Shown: in pieces, positions 26,631-53,432 of the stretch | Numbering within the stretch: position 1 is the stretch's first letter | How the letters are laid out: every line of letters begins with the position of its first letter | IMG/VR virus record: IMGVR_UViG_3300013233_000246 | Span: 29,126-93,125 of that record | Direction: 5' to 3' (one strand) | From: a virus | Length of the DNA: 64,000 nucleotides | Made by a program: the position numbers and the translations under genes | The notes under the pieces: model-generated | Told to the model about the DNA's origin: nothing | The model's input: the letters and a program-made list of their open reading frames with translations, nothing else | Database searches by the model: none

Positions 26631-27499
26631 GATTTGTTGTGTTGGGTTTTTATAATTTGCCAACCTTTCCATTTCCCCCGCTGAAGTTTTTTACCATGTC
26701 TTTGTGCCCTTAGAAATGTATCAAATGGTGCTTTTAACTCAGCACAGACATCTCTCAGATATCCATTACCAACAAGTTCATTTTCAGGATTAAATACTTT
26801 ACAAAATACTGCTAATGGATTTTTTGCACCAACATTTCTGCTCATTTCCTGCCATGTCTTTTTTCTTTTTTTCATTAATGTGGGGTCTTGAAATGGATGC
26901 TTTCTTTGTTTAAATAAATCTCGTAAATTTTGTTTATGTGCTTCGGTATGAATATGTCCACCAGTTCTAGTTATCCCAGACCTCTTCATTGCTTCTTTGG
27001 ATGGTCTTGGTGGTCTGGTATTGTTTTTAATTGCCAGTTGTCTAAAATATTCGCGTAATTCTGGATGATTTTTATATCTTAGATTCATCCCATCACTTAT
27101 TTTCTTTTTGTGTTCTTCAGATAATGTTTTCCCTGTTCTTTGTGCAGACCACATCAATCTAGTTTTTTCGCAAGGAATCCATCCATAATTACCTTCACCA
27201 CCTTTTGTTAGATTGTATCCACTTTCAGTGATATGCGTGTTGTATTCTTCGATAAAATAATTCTCCATAATATTTAAAGTATGTGCTGCATCCATTGAAC
27301 AATAAATTACTTCAAAACTAAAATTTTCAATACCATATTTTCGTAAAGCTCTGTATATAGGTCTATGTTTTGTTTCTGTAGAATGGATATCTACTATATG
27401 TTTCTCCCAGCGTTTTTCTGGAGGGTTTTGGGATGTATATCCCACATATTGTTTGTTGTTAACCCTATTGACAATTCGGTAAATATAGTGTATAATCAT
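26627..27499 (-). mobile_element. GIY-YIG homing endonuclease (Seg-like)
   Basis: YIYRIVNRVNNKQYVG, RW..H, KYG.ENF, E..FI, GYN.T.GG, NUMOD3-like tail. Confidence 0.88.
27468..27496 (+). promoter_or_regulatory. consensus sigma70 promoter for the RNA ligase gene
   Basis: TTGACA-17-TATAAT. Confidence 0.8.
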
Positions 27500-27538
27500 G
27501 GTACTTTCACTATTAATCGTATCGTTATTACTTTATTT

Positions 27539-28693
27539 ATGAATATTACAACAAACGACTACCAAAAAACCTTATATAGCAATTTGATGAATCTTGTTGA
27601 AGGAAATGAAGCGTTCTTCTTTAATGATTGGGAATTGGGTGGTAATTGGTACAGAAACTTCAATTATTGCTTGGCTTCATATACAGATTTCTGCGCTACG
27701 GACGCGCTAGAATGTCGTGGTATTATGTTTGAAATATCCGAAGGGGGGGGAAATGCTACAATGGTTCGTTTGGCATCTATTGGATTTCCGAAGTTTTTCA
27801 ATGCAGGCGAGAACCCATTTACCATGGATATAGATTTGTCCACTGTAGTTGAACTCGCAGATAAAGCAGATGGAAGTCTCATAACCACTTATATGGACGA
27901 TGGTGTTCTACGAGTTAAGACAAAAGGTTCATTGACTTCCGACCAAGCAATAAATGCTAACGCATTTCTTCGTCTTGATGAAAACGCACAGTTCCGTGCC
28001 GAATTAATTAAAGGCGAACAATTGGGATTTACTATTATTTGTGAATGGGTATCGAGCGCTCATCGCATAGTACTCCCATATTTTAAGCCAGAACTGCGGG
28101 TTCTTGGTGTGCGTTCTCGAGAAGATGGGTCGTTTATTCATTTTGATGATATAGATTGCGAACATTTCCCTGAAACGTTGGATCGTTGGACTAAGATAAT
28201 TGAAACTGATGATACGGAAGCATATATTAAATCTGTTTCTGATATGCAACACATAGAAGGTGTGGTAGCTCGCTTACCATCAGGTCAATATTTCAAAGTT
28301 AAAAGTTTGTGGTATCTCGCTCTCCATCGTACCAAAGATTCTATCACCATCCCACGTCGTTTATTTGAATGTGTGCTGGAAGAAGCATCCGACGACTTAC
28401 GTACATTGTTCCATGATGATGAACTTGCTATCAAGATGATCGAAGACATGGAAGCATTTGTTGAACAGAAGTACAATCACATGGTTGATTCTGTTGAACG
28501 TTTCTATGAACGCAACAAGCATATGGAACGCAAAGAATTTGCTATCCTTGGTCAAGAAGAACTGAACCGTATGTACTTCGGGTTGGCTATGCAACGTTAT
28601 GTAGGTAAGGACGTTGACTATAAAACTTTCTTGAAAGGTAAATGGAAACAACTTGGACTCACGGATGAGAAAACTGATTTTGAAAACGAGTAA
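27539..28693 (+). CDS. rnl1: RNA ligase 1 (T4 Rnl1/gp63-like)
   Basis: ECRGIMF, KFFN..E, motif I KADGSL, KTKGS, EW, EGVV, KVKS.WY..H. Confidence 0.9.
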   Translation: MNITTNDYQKTLYSNLMNLVEGNEAFFFNDWELGGNWYRNFNYCLASYTDFCATDALECRGIMFEISEGGGNATMVRLASIGFPKFFNAGENPFTMDIDLSTVVELADKADGSLITTYMDDGVLRVKTKGSLTSDQAINANAFLRLDENAQFRAELIKGEQLGFTIICEWVSSAHRIVLPYFKPELRVLGVRSREDGSFIHFDDIDCEHFPETLDRWTKIIETDDTEAYIKSVSDMQHIEGVVARLPSGQYFKVKSLWYLALHRTKDSITIPRRLFECVLEEASDDLRTLFHDDELAIKMIEDMEAFVEQKYNHMVDSVERFYERNKHMERKEFAILGQEELNRMYFGLAMQRYVGKDVDYKTFLKGKWKQLGLTDEKTDFENE

Positions 28694-49294: not shown

Positions 49295-49687
49295 ATGTTT
49301 AATAATACATCTACTACCAGAGGTCAAGGTGATATAGGATTGACCTTTGCTATATATAAATTGTCTGAGATGGGATATACCGTATCTTTGCCAATAACAG
49401 ATAACAATATATACGATTTGATTGTTGATATTGCTGGTAAATTAAAATCAGTTCAAGTAAAAACATCTTCGGTAATTAGAGATTCTGGAAATTATGAAGT
49501 ACAATTGCGCCGTATTCGCACAAATACATCACAAACAAAAATACACAAGTTCGATAATACCGAAGTAGATATTTTGTTTGTAGTTTTGGAAAATGGTGAA
49601 AGTTATATGATACCATCTATAGAACTTACAGTAAAAAATACATTAACAATTTGTGAAAAGTATAAAAAATATAAAATGGAGAGGTAA
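49295..49687 (+). mobile_element. PD-(D/E)XK homing-type endonuclease (I-Ssp6803I-like)
   Basis: QGDIG..A...L...GY.VS.P......YDLIVD......VQVKT. Confidence 0.8.
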
Positions 49688-49778
49688 GTCAAAAGATTCT
49701 GGGTAATGACAGCACTCTTGAAAAGTGATTATGTATAGTGATATATGTGTCAGGGTTCGAATCCCTGTCTCTCCTCCA
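49678..49778 (+). tRNA. tRNA-Ser(TGA), enlarged D-loop
   Basis: gcact-CTTGAAA-agtga, long variable arm, CCA. Confidence 0.82.
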
Positions 49779-49876
49779 ATTGTAGCTAAGTCATAGACTT
49801 CCTTCTATAATTTTCACTTGATATGAAAATTAGCTTAATCGCTAATTAAAATAGTCCTGACAATTCCTACAATTTT
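49779..49876 (+). ncRNA. Y-RNA-like ncRNA, short paralogue
   Basis: Both ends nearly identical to those of 50445-50597. Confidence 0.6.
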
Positions 49877-49932
49877 TAATTTGACAATATTGTCCAACCC
49901 TGTTAGAATGTTAATTTTGGCAGGGTTTTCTT

Positions 49933-50226
49933 ATGGATGTTGTATTTAATTTACCAGACTTCATCGAAAGTGAAGTTCCACCAGTAACTATAAAGGTGTT
50001 GAAATCGCGACCAAAAAAAGATGATTTTGAGTTAGTCCCTTGGAGTCACATTACAATGCAGATTGTTAAAGATCCAGTCTGTCCTGATGTTATATTTGAA
50101 ATAACAAAAACTGAAATCGAACCTATATCTCATAAACTTAAAGATGGTTATTATCTTAAAGATGGGTTCCCTGTAAAGATTGAAGAAACTGGTTCACGGG
50201 AGTTAAATTTAGGTGAAGATAGTTAG
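49933..50226 (+). CDS. hypothetical protein
   Basis: TTGACA-17-TAGAAT promoter at 49881. Confidence 0.5.
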   Translation: MDVVFNLPDFIESEVPPVTIKVLKSRPKKDDFELVPWSHITMQIVKDPVCPDVIFEITKTEIEPISHKLKDGYYLKDGFPVKIEETGSRELNLGEDS

Positions 50227-50348
50227 TGTATGTCCAAAAGAATTACGAAAAGGCGATGTTAAAGATTACCACAAAGCAGTTGCCGTAATGATATTAGCTT
50301 ATCGTAAAGGCAACTATACAGATATAACAAACGAAAAATTATAAAATT

Positions 50349-50444
50349 GGTGGGTTGACAGAGAGGCTTATTGTGCTTCGTTGGAAACGAAGTGTGTAGT
50401 GTAAAAGCACTGCACCATGGGTTCAAATCCCATACCCACCTCCA
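50349..50444 (+). tRNA. tRNA-Ser(GGA)
   Basis: cttcg-TTGGAAA-cgaag, long variable arm, CCA. Confidence 0.88.
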
Positions 50445-50597
50445 AATTGTAGCTAAGTTATAGACTTCCTTCTAAAACTTTGTAAAACTGGGAATGCAGC
50501 GTTCGACTCCTGCCATCCCCACCGATAAGATTATTGGGGGTGTAGCCAAATGGTAAGGCACCAGTCCGTGATAGTCCTGACAATTCCTACAATTTTT
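50445..50597 (+). ncRNA. YrlA-like Y RNA containing a circularly permuted tRNA domain
   Basis: Order T-arm, loop-closed acceptor stem, D-arm, all inside a bulged closing helix. Confidence 0.7.
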
Positions 50598-50678
50598 GCC
50601 CCGCTACGCAAATTGGTAAAGCGGCAGTGCTAAGAACGCTGTGATAGTCTCCCGGTTCGACTCCGGGGTGGGGCACCA
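50598..50678 (+). tRNA. tRNA-Leu(AAG)
   Basis: cagtg-CTAAGAA-cgctg; body paralogous to Leu(TAA) and Leu(CAA). Confidence 0.82.
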
Positions 50679-50718
50679 ATTTGATTGACTTTTTGTTATA
50701 AATGGCGTATAATGCCAT

Positions 50719-51232
50719 ATGTCTTATAATATCCCACAATTTGATAAATTATTGTCACGAAATGATTTCCGCGAAGCAGTTTTCGAGCGCGATAATCAAT
50801 TGGGTTAAAAATTTCTGGTCAAACTTTAATTTTGAAATTCCAAAAGACTGGCGTGTTTGTGGTGAAAATGTGTTTGCCGAACATTCTATCAAATACAATG
50901 AACTGGATTCTTACTTCTATGGATTTTCTATCTGGAATGATAAGAATGAATGTTTGTCTTGGGATGATACATTGGAATGGTTTAGTATTCTTCACCCCGA
51001 TATGAAGACTGTACCAGTTCTATATGACGGAATATTTGATGTTGATATTATCCAAGATTTGTGGGATGATTCAATGTACGATGAACACGAAGGCTATGTA
51101 CTTCGTTTGGCTGATAGTTTTCCAATGAGTAATTTTAGAACTTCCGCTGGAAAATTTGTCAGAAAGAATCATGTCAATACAGTCAAGCATTGGATGCATG
51201 GAAGACGAATGGTGGTTAACAAATTAAAATAG
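50719..51232 (+). pseudogene. ATP-dependent RNA ligase, N-terminal part deleted
   Basis: CGEN..AEHSI.Y, FYGFSIW, VPVLY.G, EGYVLR, KFVRKNHV present; motif I KxDG absent. Confidence 0.7.
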
Positions 51233-51591: not shown

Positions 51592-52383
51592 ATGAATTAT
51601 AAAAAACAATACGAATTGTTGATATCCACAAGACTTAAATTGCATCAAGAAAGAATCTACAATAAAAAACAAGGCGCATATTACGAAAAACACCACATTC
51701 TTCCCAAATGTATTGGTGGTGATAATAGCCCAACCAATTTATTATTACTAACTTCTCGTGAACATTTTATTGCACATTTGTTGTTGTGGAAAATACATGG
51801 TGGTAAATTATTCTATGCTATTTGGCTAATGATGCAACGCAACACCTCCTGTTGTAAAGATGTAACGATAACCAGTAGAAGATTTGCATATCTCCGCGAG
51901 GAACAAAAAAGATTGAATCGTAAAACTGGTAAAGATCATTGGAATTATGGAAAGCATCATACTATTAAATCTAAGCAAAAAATGCGTGAAGCTAAACTTG
52001 GAAAACCCAGTTCAAGAAAAGGCATAAGGTTAACAGAAAAAACGAAGGAAAAAATAAGAATAGCAAATGTAAATAAGAAGTTATCTGCTGCTCATAAGCA
52101 AAATATTTCAAATGCACTCAGGGTAAGTAAGCATCCAATGATGACAAATACGCAGCCATTTCAACATATGAAAGTAAAATCAAATAAAAATCTCCAAATG
52201 AAATGGATGAATGCCATGGAAATATACGATGTGTGGATAAATAACAATAAGCCAGGATATGTTAATATGCAAAAAATAACTAAAATATCTTCACTCAGAG
52301 CCATGATAAAGTGGTTTGATAAGTGGGGCAATCCTTCAAAAAATGATACGTGGATAGACTGGCGCAAAAATCACACACAATAA
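51592..52383 (+). mobile_element. HNH homing endonuclease with NUMOD3-like repeats
   Basis: YEKHHILPKCIGG.N...NL..LT.REHFIAH. Confidence 0.85.
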
Positions 52384-52397
52384 GGAGAAAAAATGAA

Positions 52398-53432
52398 ATG
52401 AAAAGGAAAGCATTAATTTGTGGTATAAATTATCCAGGAACATCATACCCACTTAAAGGTTGTGTTAATGATGTAAATCTTATTGCAGATATGTTAACAA
52501 ATAATTTTGGATTTACTGATGCAAAAAATCGTAGGATGTTGACTGACGCTTCTGCAACAGCCGCTGCCATAAGAGAAAGACTTGAATGGTTGGTGGCAGA
52601 TGCACAACCTGGTGATATTCTTTGGTTTTCTTATTCTGGTCATGGTTCACAATTAATAAATCAAAAATATGATGATGCTGACTTTGAACCAGACAATAAA
52701 GATGAGATAATTTGTCCAATTGATTTGAATTGGCGAGATAAAATTATTCGCGATGATGAACTAAAAAGAATTTTTGACAAGGTCCCCAATGGCGTTAATC
52801 TTACAGTTTTGTTGGATTGTTGTAATTCTGGATCTGGTCTTGATCAACTTAACCAATATCAATCACTAGGACTGGGCGAAACCCGCGCATTAAAACAACC
52901 GAATTCAATAGTAGAAGGTTCGCGATGGTTGCCTATGCCAGATGATATTGCTAATCGTGGTAGAGGATTAGATTTGTCAATCCGTCCACGTTCAGTACAA
53001 TCAAGAAATGTTAATAATACTGGATTGTTGATTAGTGGTTGCCAAGCGCAACAGACCAGTGCCGACGCATGGATTGGCGGAAAATATATGGGGGCTGCTA
53101 CATATCATCTTGTTGACGCGCTTAAAAATTCTAACTATGATATGAGTTATAAAGATTTAATTGATACTATGAATAAATCTATGGTAACAAAAGGATTTTC
53201 ACAACGACCACAACTCGATGGTTCTGCTGATTTATTCCAAGCAAAATTCCTTGAACCGCTTCTTATTGGTACTGGATTGGAAGAACCAGTTACGGCACCA
53301 GTTGTAGTACCACCTGATGTTGAACTTACTTCTGAAGTTAAAGAACCAGAACCTAAAAAGAATTGGATGAAGATAGCAGCCATCACAGCAGGTTCAATAG
53401 CTATTGGTGTAGTCATATTCCTTTCTTTATAA
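52398..53432 (+). CDS. caspase-family (C14 metacaspase-like) protease with C-terminal TM helix
   Basis: ALICGINY, LKGCVND, YSGHG, DCCNSG, SGC..QTSADA. Confidence 0.9.
   Translation: MKRKALICGINYPGTSYPLKGCVNDVNLIADMLTNNFGFTDAKNRRMLTDASATAAAIRERLEWLVADAQPGDILWFSYSGHGSQLINQKYDDADFEPDNKDEIICPIDLNWRDKIIRDDELKRIFDKVPNGVNLTVLLDCCNSGSGLDQLNQYQSLGLGETRALKQPNSIVEGSRWLPMPDDIANRGRGLDLSIRPRSVQSRNVNNTGLLISGCQAQQTSADAWIGGKYMGAATYHLVDALKNSNYDMSYKDLIDTMNKSMVTKGFSQRPQLDGSADLFQAKFLEPLLIGTGLEEPVTAPVVVPPDVELTSEVKEPEPKKNWMKIAAITAGSIAIGVVIFLSL

What the first reader, a model, noticed from the sequence alone, without database searches (positions are those of the whole stretch)
50445..50597. Circularly permuted tRNA inside a Y-RNA-like stem
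Seen: tRNA halves in reverse order: actgg, T-arm (gcag..GTTCGACTCctgc), acceptor 3' strand catcccc, a linker loop, gggggtg, D-arm TAGCCAAATGGTAAGGC, ccagt. These are enclosed by aattgtag/ctacaatt and a bulged helix (gtta-ta-gact / agtc-c-tgac). Established: bacterial YrlA Y RNAs have this architecture and partner the Ro60 orthologue Rsr, often near RNA-repair genes. No Ro/TROVE gene is visible in this window. Inference: a phage Y RNA or tRNA decoy released by processing of the flanking tRNA-Ser and tRNA-Leu.
Basis: partly seen in the sequence, partly recalled or inferred. Interest (0 to 1): 0.82.

Follow-up and report, generated by a model that had tools for sequence, protein, structure and literature searches.

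The report
Phage tRNA-mimic RNA on reusable stem
Between two tRNA genes of an uncultivated T4-like giant phage lies a small RNA gene whose core is a glutamine-type tRNA written back to front and sealed at its acceptor end. It sits on a bulged stem that the phage uses a second time with a different interior, so it resembles the known Y RNAs (YrlA) but has a different stem and no visible protein partner.

Summary
When the two halves are put back in normal order, ARAGORN calls a tRNA. The 7-bp acceptor stem is closed by a 15-nt loop. An 8-bp terminal helix sits flush between tRNA-Ser (CCA encoded) and tRNA-Leu.

The main addition is a paralogue at 49778-49877. It has the same outer stem (61 of 64 arm bases identical) but an unrelated interior, and it also follows a tRNA-Ser-like CCA. 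The unit is therefore a modular "handle plus cargo" RNA.

The design is that of YrlA-type Y RNAs, which I found beside TROVE (Ro60) genes in many phage contigs. Strict membership fails on four counts:
- Rfam YrlA scores 13.5 bits against a cut-off of 69.
- The 5' motif of Ro60-adjacent phage RNAs is absent.
- The ACAGCAA handle of DUF2828-linked RNAs is absent.
- Neither TROVE nor DUF2828 is in the 93-kb record, which is about 27% of the genome.

No homologue of the handle was found in any collection. Most likely this is a tRNA-mimic small RNA released by tRNA processing, with an unknown protein bound to the handle. This scan has met related handle-plus-tRNA-mimic RNAs in other phages. This one is a new variant and of moderate interest.

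The parts
50349..50444 (+). tRNA-Ser(GGA) with encoded CCA. Its 3' maturation defines the 5' end of the element.
   Evidence: ARAGORN; Rfam tRNA 50.7 bits
50445..50452 (+). Handle helix P1, 5' strand AAUUGUAG. The A of the CCA at 50444 can add a ninth pair.
   Evidence: identical in the paralogue
50457..50466 (+). Handle helix P2, 5' strand GUUA-UA-GACU. The UA is bulged, and CUAA (50453-50456) forms the internal loop below it.
   Evidence: cofold of the arms. The paralogue has GUCA, turning the U.G pair into C-G.
50467..50486 (+). 20-nt 5' joiner UCCUUCUAAAACUUUGUAAA. Its first 15 nt belong to the conserved 5' arm. With 50455-50466 it can form an alternative local hairpin (50455-50480).
50487..50495 (+). 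Anticodon-stem 3' strand ACUGG plus 4-nt variable region GAAU (U48 can pair with A15).
50496..50513 (+). T arm: five pairs, one bulged C between positions 52 and 53, loop UUCGACU.
50514..50542 (+). Sealed acceptor stem: CAUCCCC, then a 15-nt loop ACCGAUAAGAUUAUU, then GGGGGUG. Seven pairs including one G.U. RNase P cleavage is predicted between 50535 and 50536.
   Evidence: Precedent: the 7-bp acceptor of M. smegmatis YrlA is cut by RNase P (PMC4201824).
50543..50565 (+). U8 A9, a Gln-type D arm GCCAAAUGGUAAGGC, A26, and the anticodon-stem 5' strand CCAGU.
50573..50581 (+). Handle helix P2, 3' strand AGUC-C-UGAC with a bulged C. It is preceded by the joiner CCGUGAU (50566-50572).
50587..50597 (+). 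Handle helix P1, 3' strand CUACAAUU plus a UUU tail. AAUUC (50582-50586) is the internal loop. The 3' end would be made by RNase P cutting at the tRNA-Leu 5' end.
50598..50678 (+). tRNA-Leu(AAG), flush downstream.
49778..49877 (+). Paralogous handle RNA. The 5' arm matches at 34 of 37 bases and the 3' arm at 27 of 27. The interior is two AT-rich hairpins instead of the tRNA body.
   Evidence: Its minimum-free-energy fold is P1 plus bulged P2, z -3.2.
49678..49778 (+). Degenerate class II tRNA-Ser(UGA)-like gene ending in CCA, directly before the paralogue. ARAGORN misses it.
   Evidence: Rfam tRNA-Sec model 29.1 bits, below its cut-off; 61% identical to tRNA-Ser(GGA)
49881..49909 (+). Promoter-like site TTGACA-17-TAGAAT (11 of 12, with TG). 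It could drive the unit ORF 49933-50226, ORF 50213-50344, tRNA-Ser, the element and tRNA-Leu.
   Evidence: a consensus match only

Best explanation
The interval encodes a modular small RNA of the 'handle plus cargo' kind, transcribed with the phage's tRNAs.

The handle is a terminal 8-bp helix (P1), a 4/5-nt internal loop, and a helix interrupted by a UA bulge on one strand and a single bulged C on the other (P2). The phage uses the same handle a second time at 49778-49877 with a different interior.

The cargo here is a glutamine-type tRNA body in circularly permuted order: anticodon-stem 3' strand, variable region, T arm, acceptor stem closed by a loop, D arm, anticodon-stem 5' strand. It keeps the nucleotides that build the tRNA elbow but has no anticodon loop.

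Shown:
- the anatomy
- the paralogue
- the flush position between two tRNAs
- the likeness of the core to Ro60-adjacent phage Y-like RNAs

Inferred:
- The 3' end is made by RNase P at tRNA-Leu and the 5' end by 3' maturation of tRNA-Ser.
- The handle is the docking site of a protein. This could be a Ro60-like ring encoded in the missing 73% of the genome or by the host, or an unrelated protein.
- The cargo offers a tRNA-shaped surface that recruits or decoys tRNA-binding factors, as proposed for YrlA.
- Because the acceptor stem has 7 pairs followed by ACC, RNase P may also cut at 50535/50536. This would give a two-piece RNA, as reported for M. smegmatis YrlA.
For: - Anatomy and tRNA-likeness.
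- Closed acceptor stems are rare among T-loop/D-arm junctions.
- The terminal helix arises by chance with p about 4e-4.
- A covariance model built only from nine elements of three other phages hits the window once, at 50465-50586 (50.4 bits, E 1e-8; next best 19 bits), and once in the whole 93-kb record.
- The same model finds 61 elements in 79 TROVE loci, all on the TROVE strand and mostly just upstream. Their core is 97% paired with heavy covariation.
- The handle is duplicated with 61 of 64 identical arm bases, while the preceding tRNA-Ser genes are 61% identical and the interiors and downstream DNA are unrelated.
- The one arm difference inside a helix changes U.G to C-G.
- The paralogue's minimum-free-energy fold is the proposed handle, z -3.2. 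The arm cofolds give z -2.95 and -4.2.
- Another phage element (L068) also starts right after a tRNA CCA.
- Precedent for RNase P cleavage of a 7-bp-acceptor YrlA: PMC4201824.
Against: - No partner gene is visible. TROVE, DUF2828, RtcB and a CCA-adding enzyme are all absent from the 93 kb, and neighbouring small ORFs are orphans.
- No homologue of the handle turned up in IMG/VR, JGI metagenomes, GTDB genomes or GenBank phages. There is therefore no cross-species covariation for the handle.
- The covariance model also scores ordinary tandem-tRNA junctions with the same D-arm type at 28-59 bits. Its score alone does not prove class membership.
- There are no expression data.
- The surrounding array contains decayed genes.
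Confidence: 0.6

Rival explanations
1. It is a true Ro60/Rsr-bound Y RNA (a YrlA orthologue) whose Ro60 gene simply lies in the unsequenced part of the phage or in the host.
For: - The architecture is the same as YrlA.
- Phage TROVE genes are common: at least 483 loci.
- They are not always adjacent to the RNA: 86 kb away in G006.
- The complete genome G002 carries three near-canonical YrlA-like RNAs and no TROVE gene.
- The P2 strand AGUC-C-UGA with a bulged C recalls the GGUC-C-GA Ro contact site of vertebrate Y RNAs. This rests on my own knowledge and PMC4201824 and is a lead only.
Against: - The conserved 5' motif is present in 51 of 56 TROVE-adjacent phage elements and absent here. An HMM of that segment finds nothing in the element.
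- The GUCC-like strand lies on the 3' arm, which is the opposite polarity to Y RNAs.
- Rfam YrlA gives 13.5 bits, and the Y_RNA model gives no match at E up to 10.
Confidence: 0.25
2. It is non-functional debris: the inner halves of a tandem pair of Gln-type tRNA genes, left by deletions in an array that homing endonucleases keep rearranging.
For: - The ACC plus a 12-nt linker looks like an encoded CCA plus a normal inter-tRNA spacer.
- The T stem has a bulge.
- The sequence is an orphan.
- Neighbouring genes are decayed: a ligase remnant and a degenerate tRNA-Ser-like gene.
- Homing endonucleases lie nearby.
Against: - All five helices of the tRNA body and both handle helices are intact.
- The handle is kept at 95% identity in a second copy whose flanks and interior have diverged or differ.
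- The terminal helix is flush with the tRNA borders (p about 4e-4).
- The same design is under clear selection beside TROVE genes.
Confidence: 0.13
3. It is a genuine circularly permuted tRNA gene, or a two-piece chargeable tRNA or tmRNA-like molecule, that takes part in translation after processing or ligation. The phage encodes a T4 Rnl1-like ligase.
For: - The halves are in 3'-then-5' order and a 7-bp acceptor stem is followed by ACC.
- An intact Rnl1-like ligase lies at 27365-28693.
- There are weak local matches to permuted tmRNA models (17.7 and 14.1 bits).
Against: - No anticodon-loop sequence or bulge-helix-bulge junction exists. The flanks are long helices shared with a cargo-less paralogue.
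- The bulged T stem would disturb the part of a tRNA that EF-Tu and the ribosome read (my own knowledge).
- The acceptor has G3-C70, not G3:U70; there is no tag reading frame; ARAGORN finds no tmRNA.
- CCA is not conserved in the class.
Confidence: 0.04
4. The two copies are a DNA-level element, such as a small inverted-repeat mobile or recombination cassette that targets the 3' end of tRNA-Ser genes, and not an RNA with a function.
For: - Both copies start right after ...CCTCCA of a tRNA-Ser(-like) gene.
- Both are bounded by an 8-9 bp inverted repeat.
Against: - There is no target-site duplication.
- Only two copies exist in 93 kb.
- Both have the same orientation as the tRNA operon.
- The cargo's anticodon stem sits just inside the handle helices, as expected of one folded RNA.
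- The interiors differ, unlike copies of a mobile element.
Confidence: 0.05

Closest known systems
YrlA-type bacterial and phage Y RNAs (Rfam RF02553; Chen et al. 2014, PMC4201824)
   Same: - The order is T arm, loop-closed acceptor stem, D arm.
- A short stem in the anticodon-stem position leads to a terminal stem formed by the 5' and 3' ends.
- The elbow nucleotides are kept.
- The 7-bp acceptor stem matches M. smegmatis YrlA, which RNase P cuts.
   Different: - There is no GNCGAAN0-1G or UUACUUC motif.
- The score is far below the Rfam cut-off.
- No Ro60 gene lies within 4 kb or in the 93-kb record.
- It is longer (153 nt against about 105 nt) and has a bulged second helix.
- It sits flush between two tRNA genes.
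- It has a cargo-less paralogue.
Phage 'stem plus ACAGCAA' handle RNAs beside DUF2828 (Ro60-like) genes. These are known to me only from earlier notes of this scan; I checked them here on L045/G004 and L068/G007.
   Same: - The logic is the same modular one: a constant handle, swappable interiors, some of them sealed permuted tRNA bodies.
- They lie inside phage tRNA arrays.
- The L068 element also begins right after a tRNA CCA.
   Different: - The handle sequence is different: there is no ACAGCAA in this tRNA array.
- There is no DUF2828 gene in the record.
- In L068, L088 and L033 the tRNA body is opened in the variable region and keeps an anticodon arm. Here it is opened at the anticodon loop.
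Circularly permuted tRNA genes of Cyanidioschyzon merolae and some green algae (my own knowledge; Soma et al. 2007)
   Same: The 3' half lies upstream of the 5' half, joined by a short linker between the acceptor strands.
   Different: Those genes mature through a bulge-helix-bulge junction, circularisation and removal of the linker, and give a decoding tRNA. Here there is no anticodon loop, no such junction and a bulged T stem, and no such pathway is known in bacteria.
Phage T4 species 1 and 2 stable RNAs (rnaC, rnaD; annotated in AF158101)
   Same: They are small stable RNAs of unknown function placed directly after a tRNA gene in the tRNA cluster of a T4-type phage. rnaC ends in a T-arm-like hairpin.
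   Different: There is no sequence similarity, no sealed acceptor stem and no shared handle. I made the comparison by eye only.

Membership tests
YrlA (RF02553) | tRNA-like module in the order T arm, loop-closed acceptor stem, D arm | tested here: met
   an independent phage model gives 50.4 bits
YrlA (RF02553) | Terminal stem formed by the 5' and 3' ends, linked to the module through a short stem in the anticodon-stem position | tested here: met
   P1 8 bp, P2 4+4 bp, 5-bp anticodon stem
YrlA (RF02553) | 5' Ro60-contact motif GNCGAAN0-1G (PMC4201824), or its phage form RG-UUACUUC | tested here: not met
   Absent from the sequence. An HMM of the motif segment from 35 TROVE-adjacent elements finds nothing in the element. 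The motif is present in 51 of 56 TROVE-adjacent elements.
YrlA (RF02553) | Score at or above the Rfam gathering cut-off (69 bits) | tested here: not met
   13.5 bits, local match to model positions 30-81. TROVE-adjacent phage elements also score only 24-38 bits, so this cut-off is too strict for phage members.
YrlA (RF02553) | Encoded within about 4 kb of a Ro60/TROVE gene | tested here: not met
   No PF05731 match in the whole 93-kb record. The record is about 27% of the genome, so a distant gene is not excluded.
YrlA (RF02553) | Bound by Rsr/Ro60 | not testable with these tools
   Needs pull-down or gel-shift experiments.
ACAGCAA-handle phage RNAs with a DUF2828 partner | Closing helix followed by (Y)ACAGCAA | tested here: not met
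   No YACAGCAA in the tRNA array. The motif is present in L068 and L045.
ACAGCAA-handle phage RNAs with a DUF2828 partner | DUF2828 (PF11443) gene in the genome, usually nearby | tested here: not met
   None in the 93 kb. Present 0.3 kb downstream of an element in G004 and 1.1 kb downstream of one in G007.
Circularly permuted tRNA gene | A complete anticodon loop and a functional tRNA can be rebuilt by joining the transcript ends | tested here: not met
   Beyond the anticodon stem the flanks are 42 and 32 nt of handle shared with a cargo-less paralogue. The T stem is bulged.
Two-piece (permuted) tmRNA | G3:U70 alanine identity, tag reading frame, pseudoknots | tested here: not met
   The acceptor has G3-C70. 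ARAGORN finds no tmRNA. The tmRNA_permuted model gives 17.7 bits against a cut-off of 47.

The most novel reading that the evidence does not exclude
The P1/bulged-P2 stem is a third, so far undescribed protein-docking handle of phage small RNAs. It is distinct from the YrlA motif and from the ACAGCAA handle. It would define a new phage ribonucleoprotein that displays interchangeable cargo, here a sealed tRNA-Gln mimic, possibly independent of any Ro60-like protein, and is produced by the tRNA-processing machinery.
Probability: 0.3. Interest if true: 0.7.

Novelty: new variant of a known kind. Interest (0 to 1): 0.5.

Why it matters
Y RNAs with tRNA-like domains are known beside Ro60 genes in bacteria and some phages, but what the tRNA mimic does is still open. 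This case adds three things:
- a clean natural 'domain swap', in which the same handle appears once with and once without the tRNA mimic
- a position where both ends are set by tRNA processing
- a handle that matches neither known type

That makes it a compact system for asking what binds the handle, what the tRNA-shaped cargo recruits or decoys during infection, and whether such RNAs can work without Ro60. On its own it is a single orphan locus in a partial genome, so the interest is moderate.

Tried and rejected
- **Searches for close homologues, all empty or chance.**
  - A 23-mer of the T arm and acceptor stem hit only ordinary tRNA-Tyr genes.
  - An acceptor-junction pattern gave coding-sequence chance hits.
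  - Two metagenome scans, two GTDB genome scans and three further viral scans found nothing, or only an ordinary tRNA-Gly.
- **Synteny route.** The upstream ORF is a singleton in the 5.8-billion-protein set. A large structural protein has no close relative in IMG/VR or GenBank phages. Relatives of the RNA ligase carry no tRNAs nearby.
- **Shared 5' string with L088.** A string GUAG..GUUAYAGA.UUYC is shared with L088, but it did not define a subfamily.
- **The covariance model R1 as a class test.** It also scores tandem-tRNA junctions with the same D arm, so I did not use its score as proof.
- **Partner hunt.** Pfam, PHROGs and ESM Atlas searches on neighbouring ORFs gave nothing.
- **Relaxed motif search for the handle.** A regular-expression search over 1.6 Mb of held phage loci returned only noise.
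- **Permuted tmRNA and true permuted tRNA.** Both rejected for the reasons given in the membership table.

Full report
**Context.** The window is the last 64 kb of a 93,125-bp IMG/VR viral contig that CheckV rates 27% complete, which implies a genome of roughly 340 kb. The gene content is T4-like: gp32, a UvsX/RecA-like protein, a DnaB-type helicase and a T4 Rnl1-like RNA ligase. The window carries 25 tRNA genes, all on the + strand. No close relative exists in GenBank phages or IMG/VR.

**Observation.** In order, the interval holds:
- the anticodon-stem 3' strand (50487-50491)
- a 4-nt variable region
- a T arm with loop UUCGACU and one bulged C in its stem (50496-50513)
- the acceptor 3' strand CAUCCCC
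- a 15-nt linker beginning ACC
- the acceptor 5' strand GGGGGUG
- U8 A9
- a glutamine-type D arm
- the anticodon-stem 5' strand (50561-50565)

The interval is exactly flush between tRNA-Ser(GGA), whose encoded CCA ends at 50444, and tRNA-Leu(AAG), which starts at 50598.

Four results show this is more than chance:
- When I rejoined the halves in normal order with an arbitrary anticodon loop, ARAGORN called a tRNA each time.
- The body is not a copy of any of the 25 tRNAs. Its 5' half is closest to tRNA-Gln.
- Among about 129 T-loop/Gln-type D-arm junctions fetched from IMG/VR, acceptor complementarity clusters at 3-4 of 7. Only 8 reach the 7 of 7 seen here.
- The 8-bp terminal helix has a shuffle probability of about 4e-4.

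The unconstrained fold of the whole RNA is unremarkable (z -1.7), as is common for tRNA-like sequences.

**The paralogue.** That 100-nt stretch has the same 5' arm (34 of 37 bases) and the same 3' arm (27 of 27) as the element, but its interior consists of two AT-rich hairpins. There are only these two copies in the 93 kb.

The paralogue also starts at the CCA of a tRNA-Ser-like gene (49678-49778). ARAGORN misses that gene and Rfam scores it below threshold. The two serine tRNA genes are only 61% identical, and the interiors and downstream sequences are unrelated.

The isolated arms of both copies cofold the same way (z -2.95 and -4.2). The single arm difference that falls in a helix turns a U.G pair into C-G.

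This settles the choice left open. There, with the tRNA core forced, a local 5' hairpin was slightly better than P2 in copy 1. The unit is therefore a constant handle carrying exchangeable cargo.

**Relation to Y RNAs.** Rfam's YrlA model matches only the T/acceptor/D core at 13.5 bits, against a cut-off of 69. Permuted tmRNA models match the same stretch equally weakly.

A degenerate pattern for a T loop followed by a Gln-type D arm, filtered for complementary acceptor strands, recovered true sealed-acceptor elements in eight other large phage contigs. Their partner genes are distributed as follows:
- Three of those records encode TROVE proteins. Two lie directly beside the RNAs (L026, L033) and one is 86 kb away.
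- Two others encode DUF2828 proteins just downstream of the RNAs. I took that lead from earlier notes of this scan and verified it here.
- Three records have neither. They include one rated 100% complete that still carries three near-canonical YrlA-like RNAs.

I built a covariance model from nine elements of three of these phages, without the window's sequence. It hits the window once, on the element (50.4 bits, E 1e-8; next best 19 bits). In 79 phage TROVE loci it finds 61 elements, all on the TROVE strand and mostly immediately upstream. Their core helices are 97% paired and covary strongly.

One caveat applies. The same model gives 28-59 bits to ordinary tandem-tRNA junctions that share the D-arm type. 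The score therefore shows likeness of the core, not membership.

**Where membership fails.** In TROVE-adjacent phage elements, an 8-bp terminal helix ending in RG is followed at once by UUACUUC. The motif is present in 51 of 56 elements and the helix abuts it in 40 of 56. Bacterial YrlA has GNCGAAN0-1G at this place (PMC4201824).

The window's element has the terminal helix, ending in AG, but not the motif, and an HMM of that segment finds nothing in it. It also lacks the ACAGCAA handle of the DUF2828-linked RNAs. Neither TROVE, DUF2828, RtcB nor a CCA-adding enzyme is encoded in the 93 kb.

The RNA ligase ORF just downstream (50702-51232) is a deletion remnant. Codons 2-17 of the full-length homologue are read in one frame, and the sequence then jumps to about residue 200 in another frame, so the KxDG lysine region is lost.

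**Mechanism.** A promoter-like site at 49881-49909 could drive two small ORFs, tRNA-Ser, the element and tRNA-Leu as one transcript. This is a consensus match only.

RNase P cleavage at the tRNA-Leu 5' end would leave ...CUACAAUUUUU-3', and maturation of the tRNA-Ser CCA end would free the 5' end. Both steps are inferred.

Chen et al. showed that M. smegmatis YrlA, the one with a 7-bp acceptor stem, is cut by RNase P and receives CCA. The element has 7 pairs followed by ACC, so a second cut between 50535 and 50536 is plausible. This is also inferred.

The body keeps U8, A14, A15/U48, G18 G19, U54 U55 C56 and A58, so a tRNA elbow can form. It has no anticodon loop and its T stem is bulged, which argues against a decoding tRNA.

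I therefore read it as a tRNA-mimic cargo on a protein-docking handle. It would work like a Y RNA, and the identity of the protein remains open.

**Rivals.**
- A true Ro60-bound Y RNA remains possible, because three quarters of the genome is missing. The bulged-C strand of P2 (AGUC-C-UGA) recalls the vertebrate GGUC-C-GA site, but it lies on the opposite arm.
- Debris from a tandem tRNA pair fits the ACC-plus-spacer linker and the decayed surroundings. It does not fit the intact helices or the conserved duplicated handle.
- A true permuted tRNA, a two-piece chargeable RNA, and a DNA-level inverted-repeat cassette are each unlikely, for the reasons given in their entries.

**Novelty.** tRNA-like Y RNAs in phages have been in print since 2014. 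Earlier reports of this scan describe many handle-plus-tRNA-mimic RNAs in phage tRNA arrays.

What is new here is a third handle type, a with-and-without-cargo pair in one genome, and the flush placement between tRNAs. No homologue of the handle was found in any collection searched. The case rests on one locus and has no cross-species covariation for the handle.

Noticed in passing
window 50702-51232 (N-terminal fragment at 50749-50796 in another frame): The PF09414 RNA ligase gene is a deletion remnant. Residues 2-17 of a 346-aa homologue (L009 3443-4483) are followed, out of frame, by residues from about 200 to 336. The HNH/zinc-finger part and the KxDG nucleotidyl-transferase motif are missing.
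   Followed up: yes
window 49678-49778: A class II tRNA-Ser(UGA)-like gene with encoded CCA that ARAGORN misses. Rfam scores it below threshold (tRNA-Sec model, 29.1 bits). It may be degenerate or non-canonical.
   Followed up: partly
window 27365-28693: An intact T4 Rnl1-like RNA ligase (phrog_562, E 1e-97), the ligase type that reseals broken tRNA anticodon loops in T4.
   Followed up: no
L031 2731-3143 and 9181-9694 (IMG/VR contig of 233 kb, rated 100% complete): Three tandem YrlA-like RNAs with a near-canonical GCCAAUGCUU motif and a GOLLD RNA (156 bits) sit in the tRNA array of a phage that has neither a TROVE nor a DUF2828 gene.
   Followed up: partly
L068 1678-1812, L088 4173-4355 (- strand), L033 1470-1610 (- strand): Sealed-acceptor tRNA bodies that keep a complete anticodon arm (loops CUGAUAA, CGCAUAA, CUCUUAA) and are opened in the variable region. 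The closing helix therefore sits where a long variable arm would. If cut by RNase P they could give two-piece tRNA-shaped RNAs.
   Followed up: partly
L045 3720-3870 with G004:C1:15283-16032; L068 4210-4380 with G007:C1:60983-61819: Elements with a stem plus (A/U)CAGCAA handle lie 0.3-1.1 kb upstream of DUF2828 (PF11443) genes on the same strand.
   Followed up: partly
window 50568-50576 and 50641-50649: The 9-mer GTGATAGTC occurs both in the element's 3' joiner and in the variable region of the adjacent tRNA-Leu(AAG). This may be chance or a trace of recombination.
   Followed up: no
window 51592-53432: An HNH/NUMOD3 homing-endonuclease-like ORF (51592-52383) overlaps the start of a caspase-family peptidase C14 gene (52350-53432; PF00656, E 6e-34) inside the tRNA array.
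   Followed up: no
L217 (phage T4, AF158101) 1909-2172, - strand: T4 rnaD and rnaC lie directly after tRNA-Arg. rnaC ends in a T-arm-like hairpin (CCGGGUUCGAAUCCCGG), and rnaD contains CACAGCAGAAA, which recalls the ACAGCAA handle.
   Followed up: no
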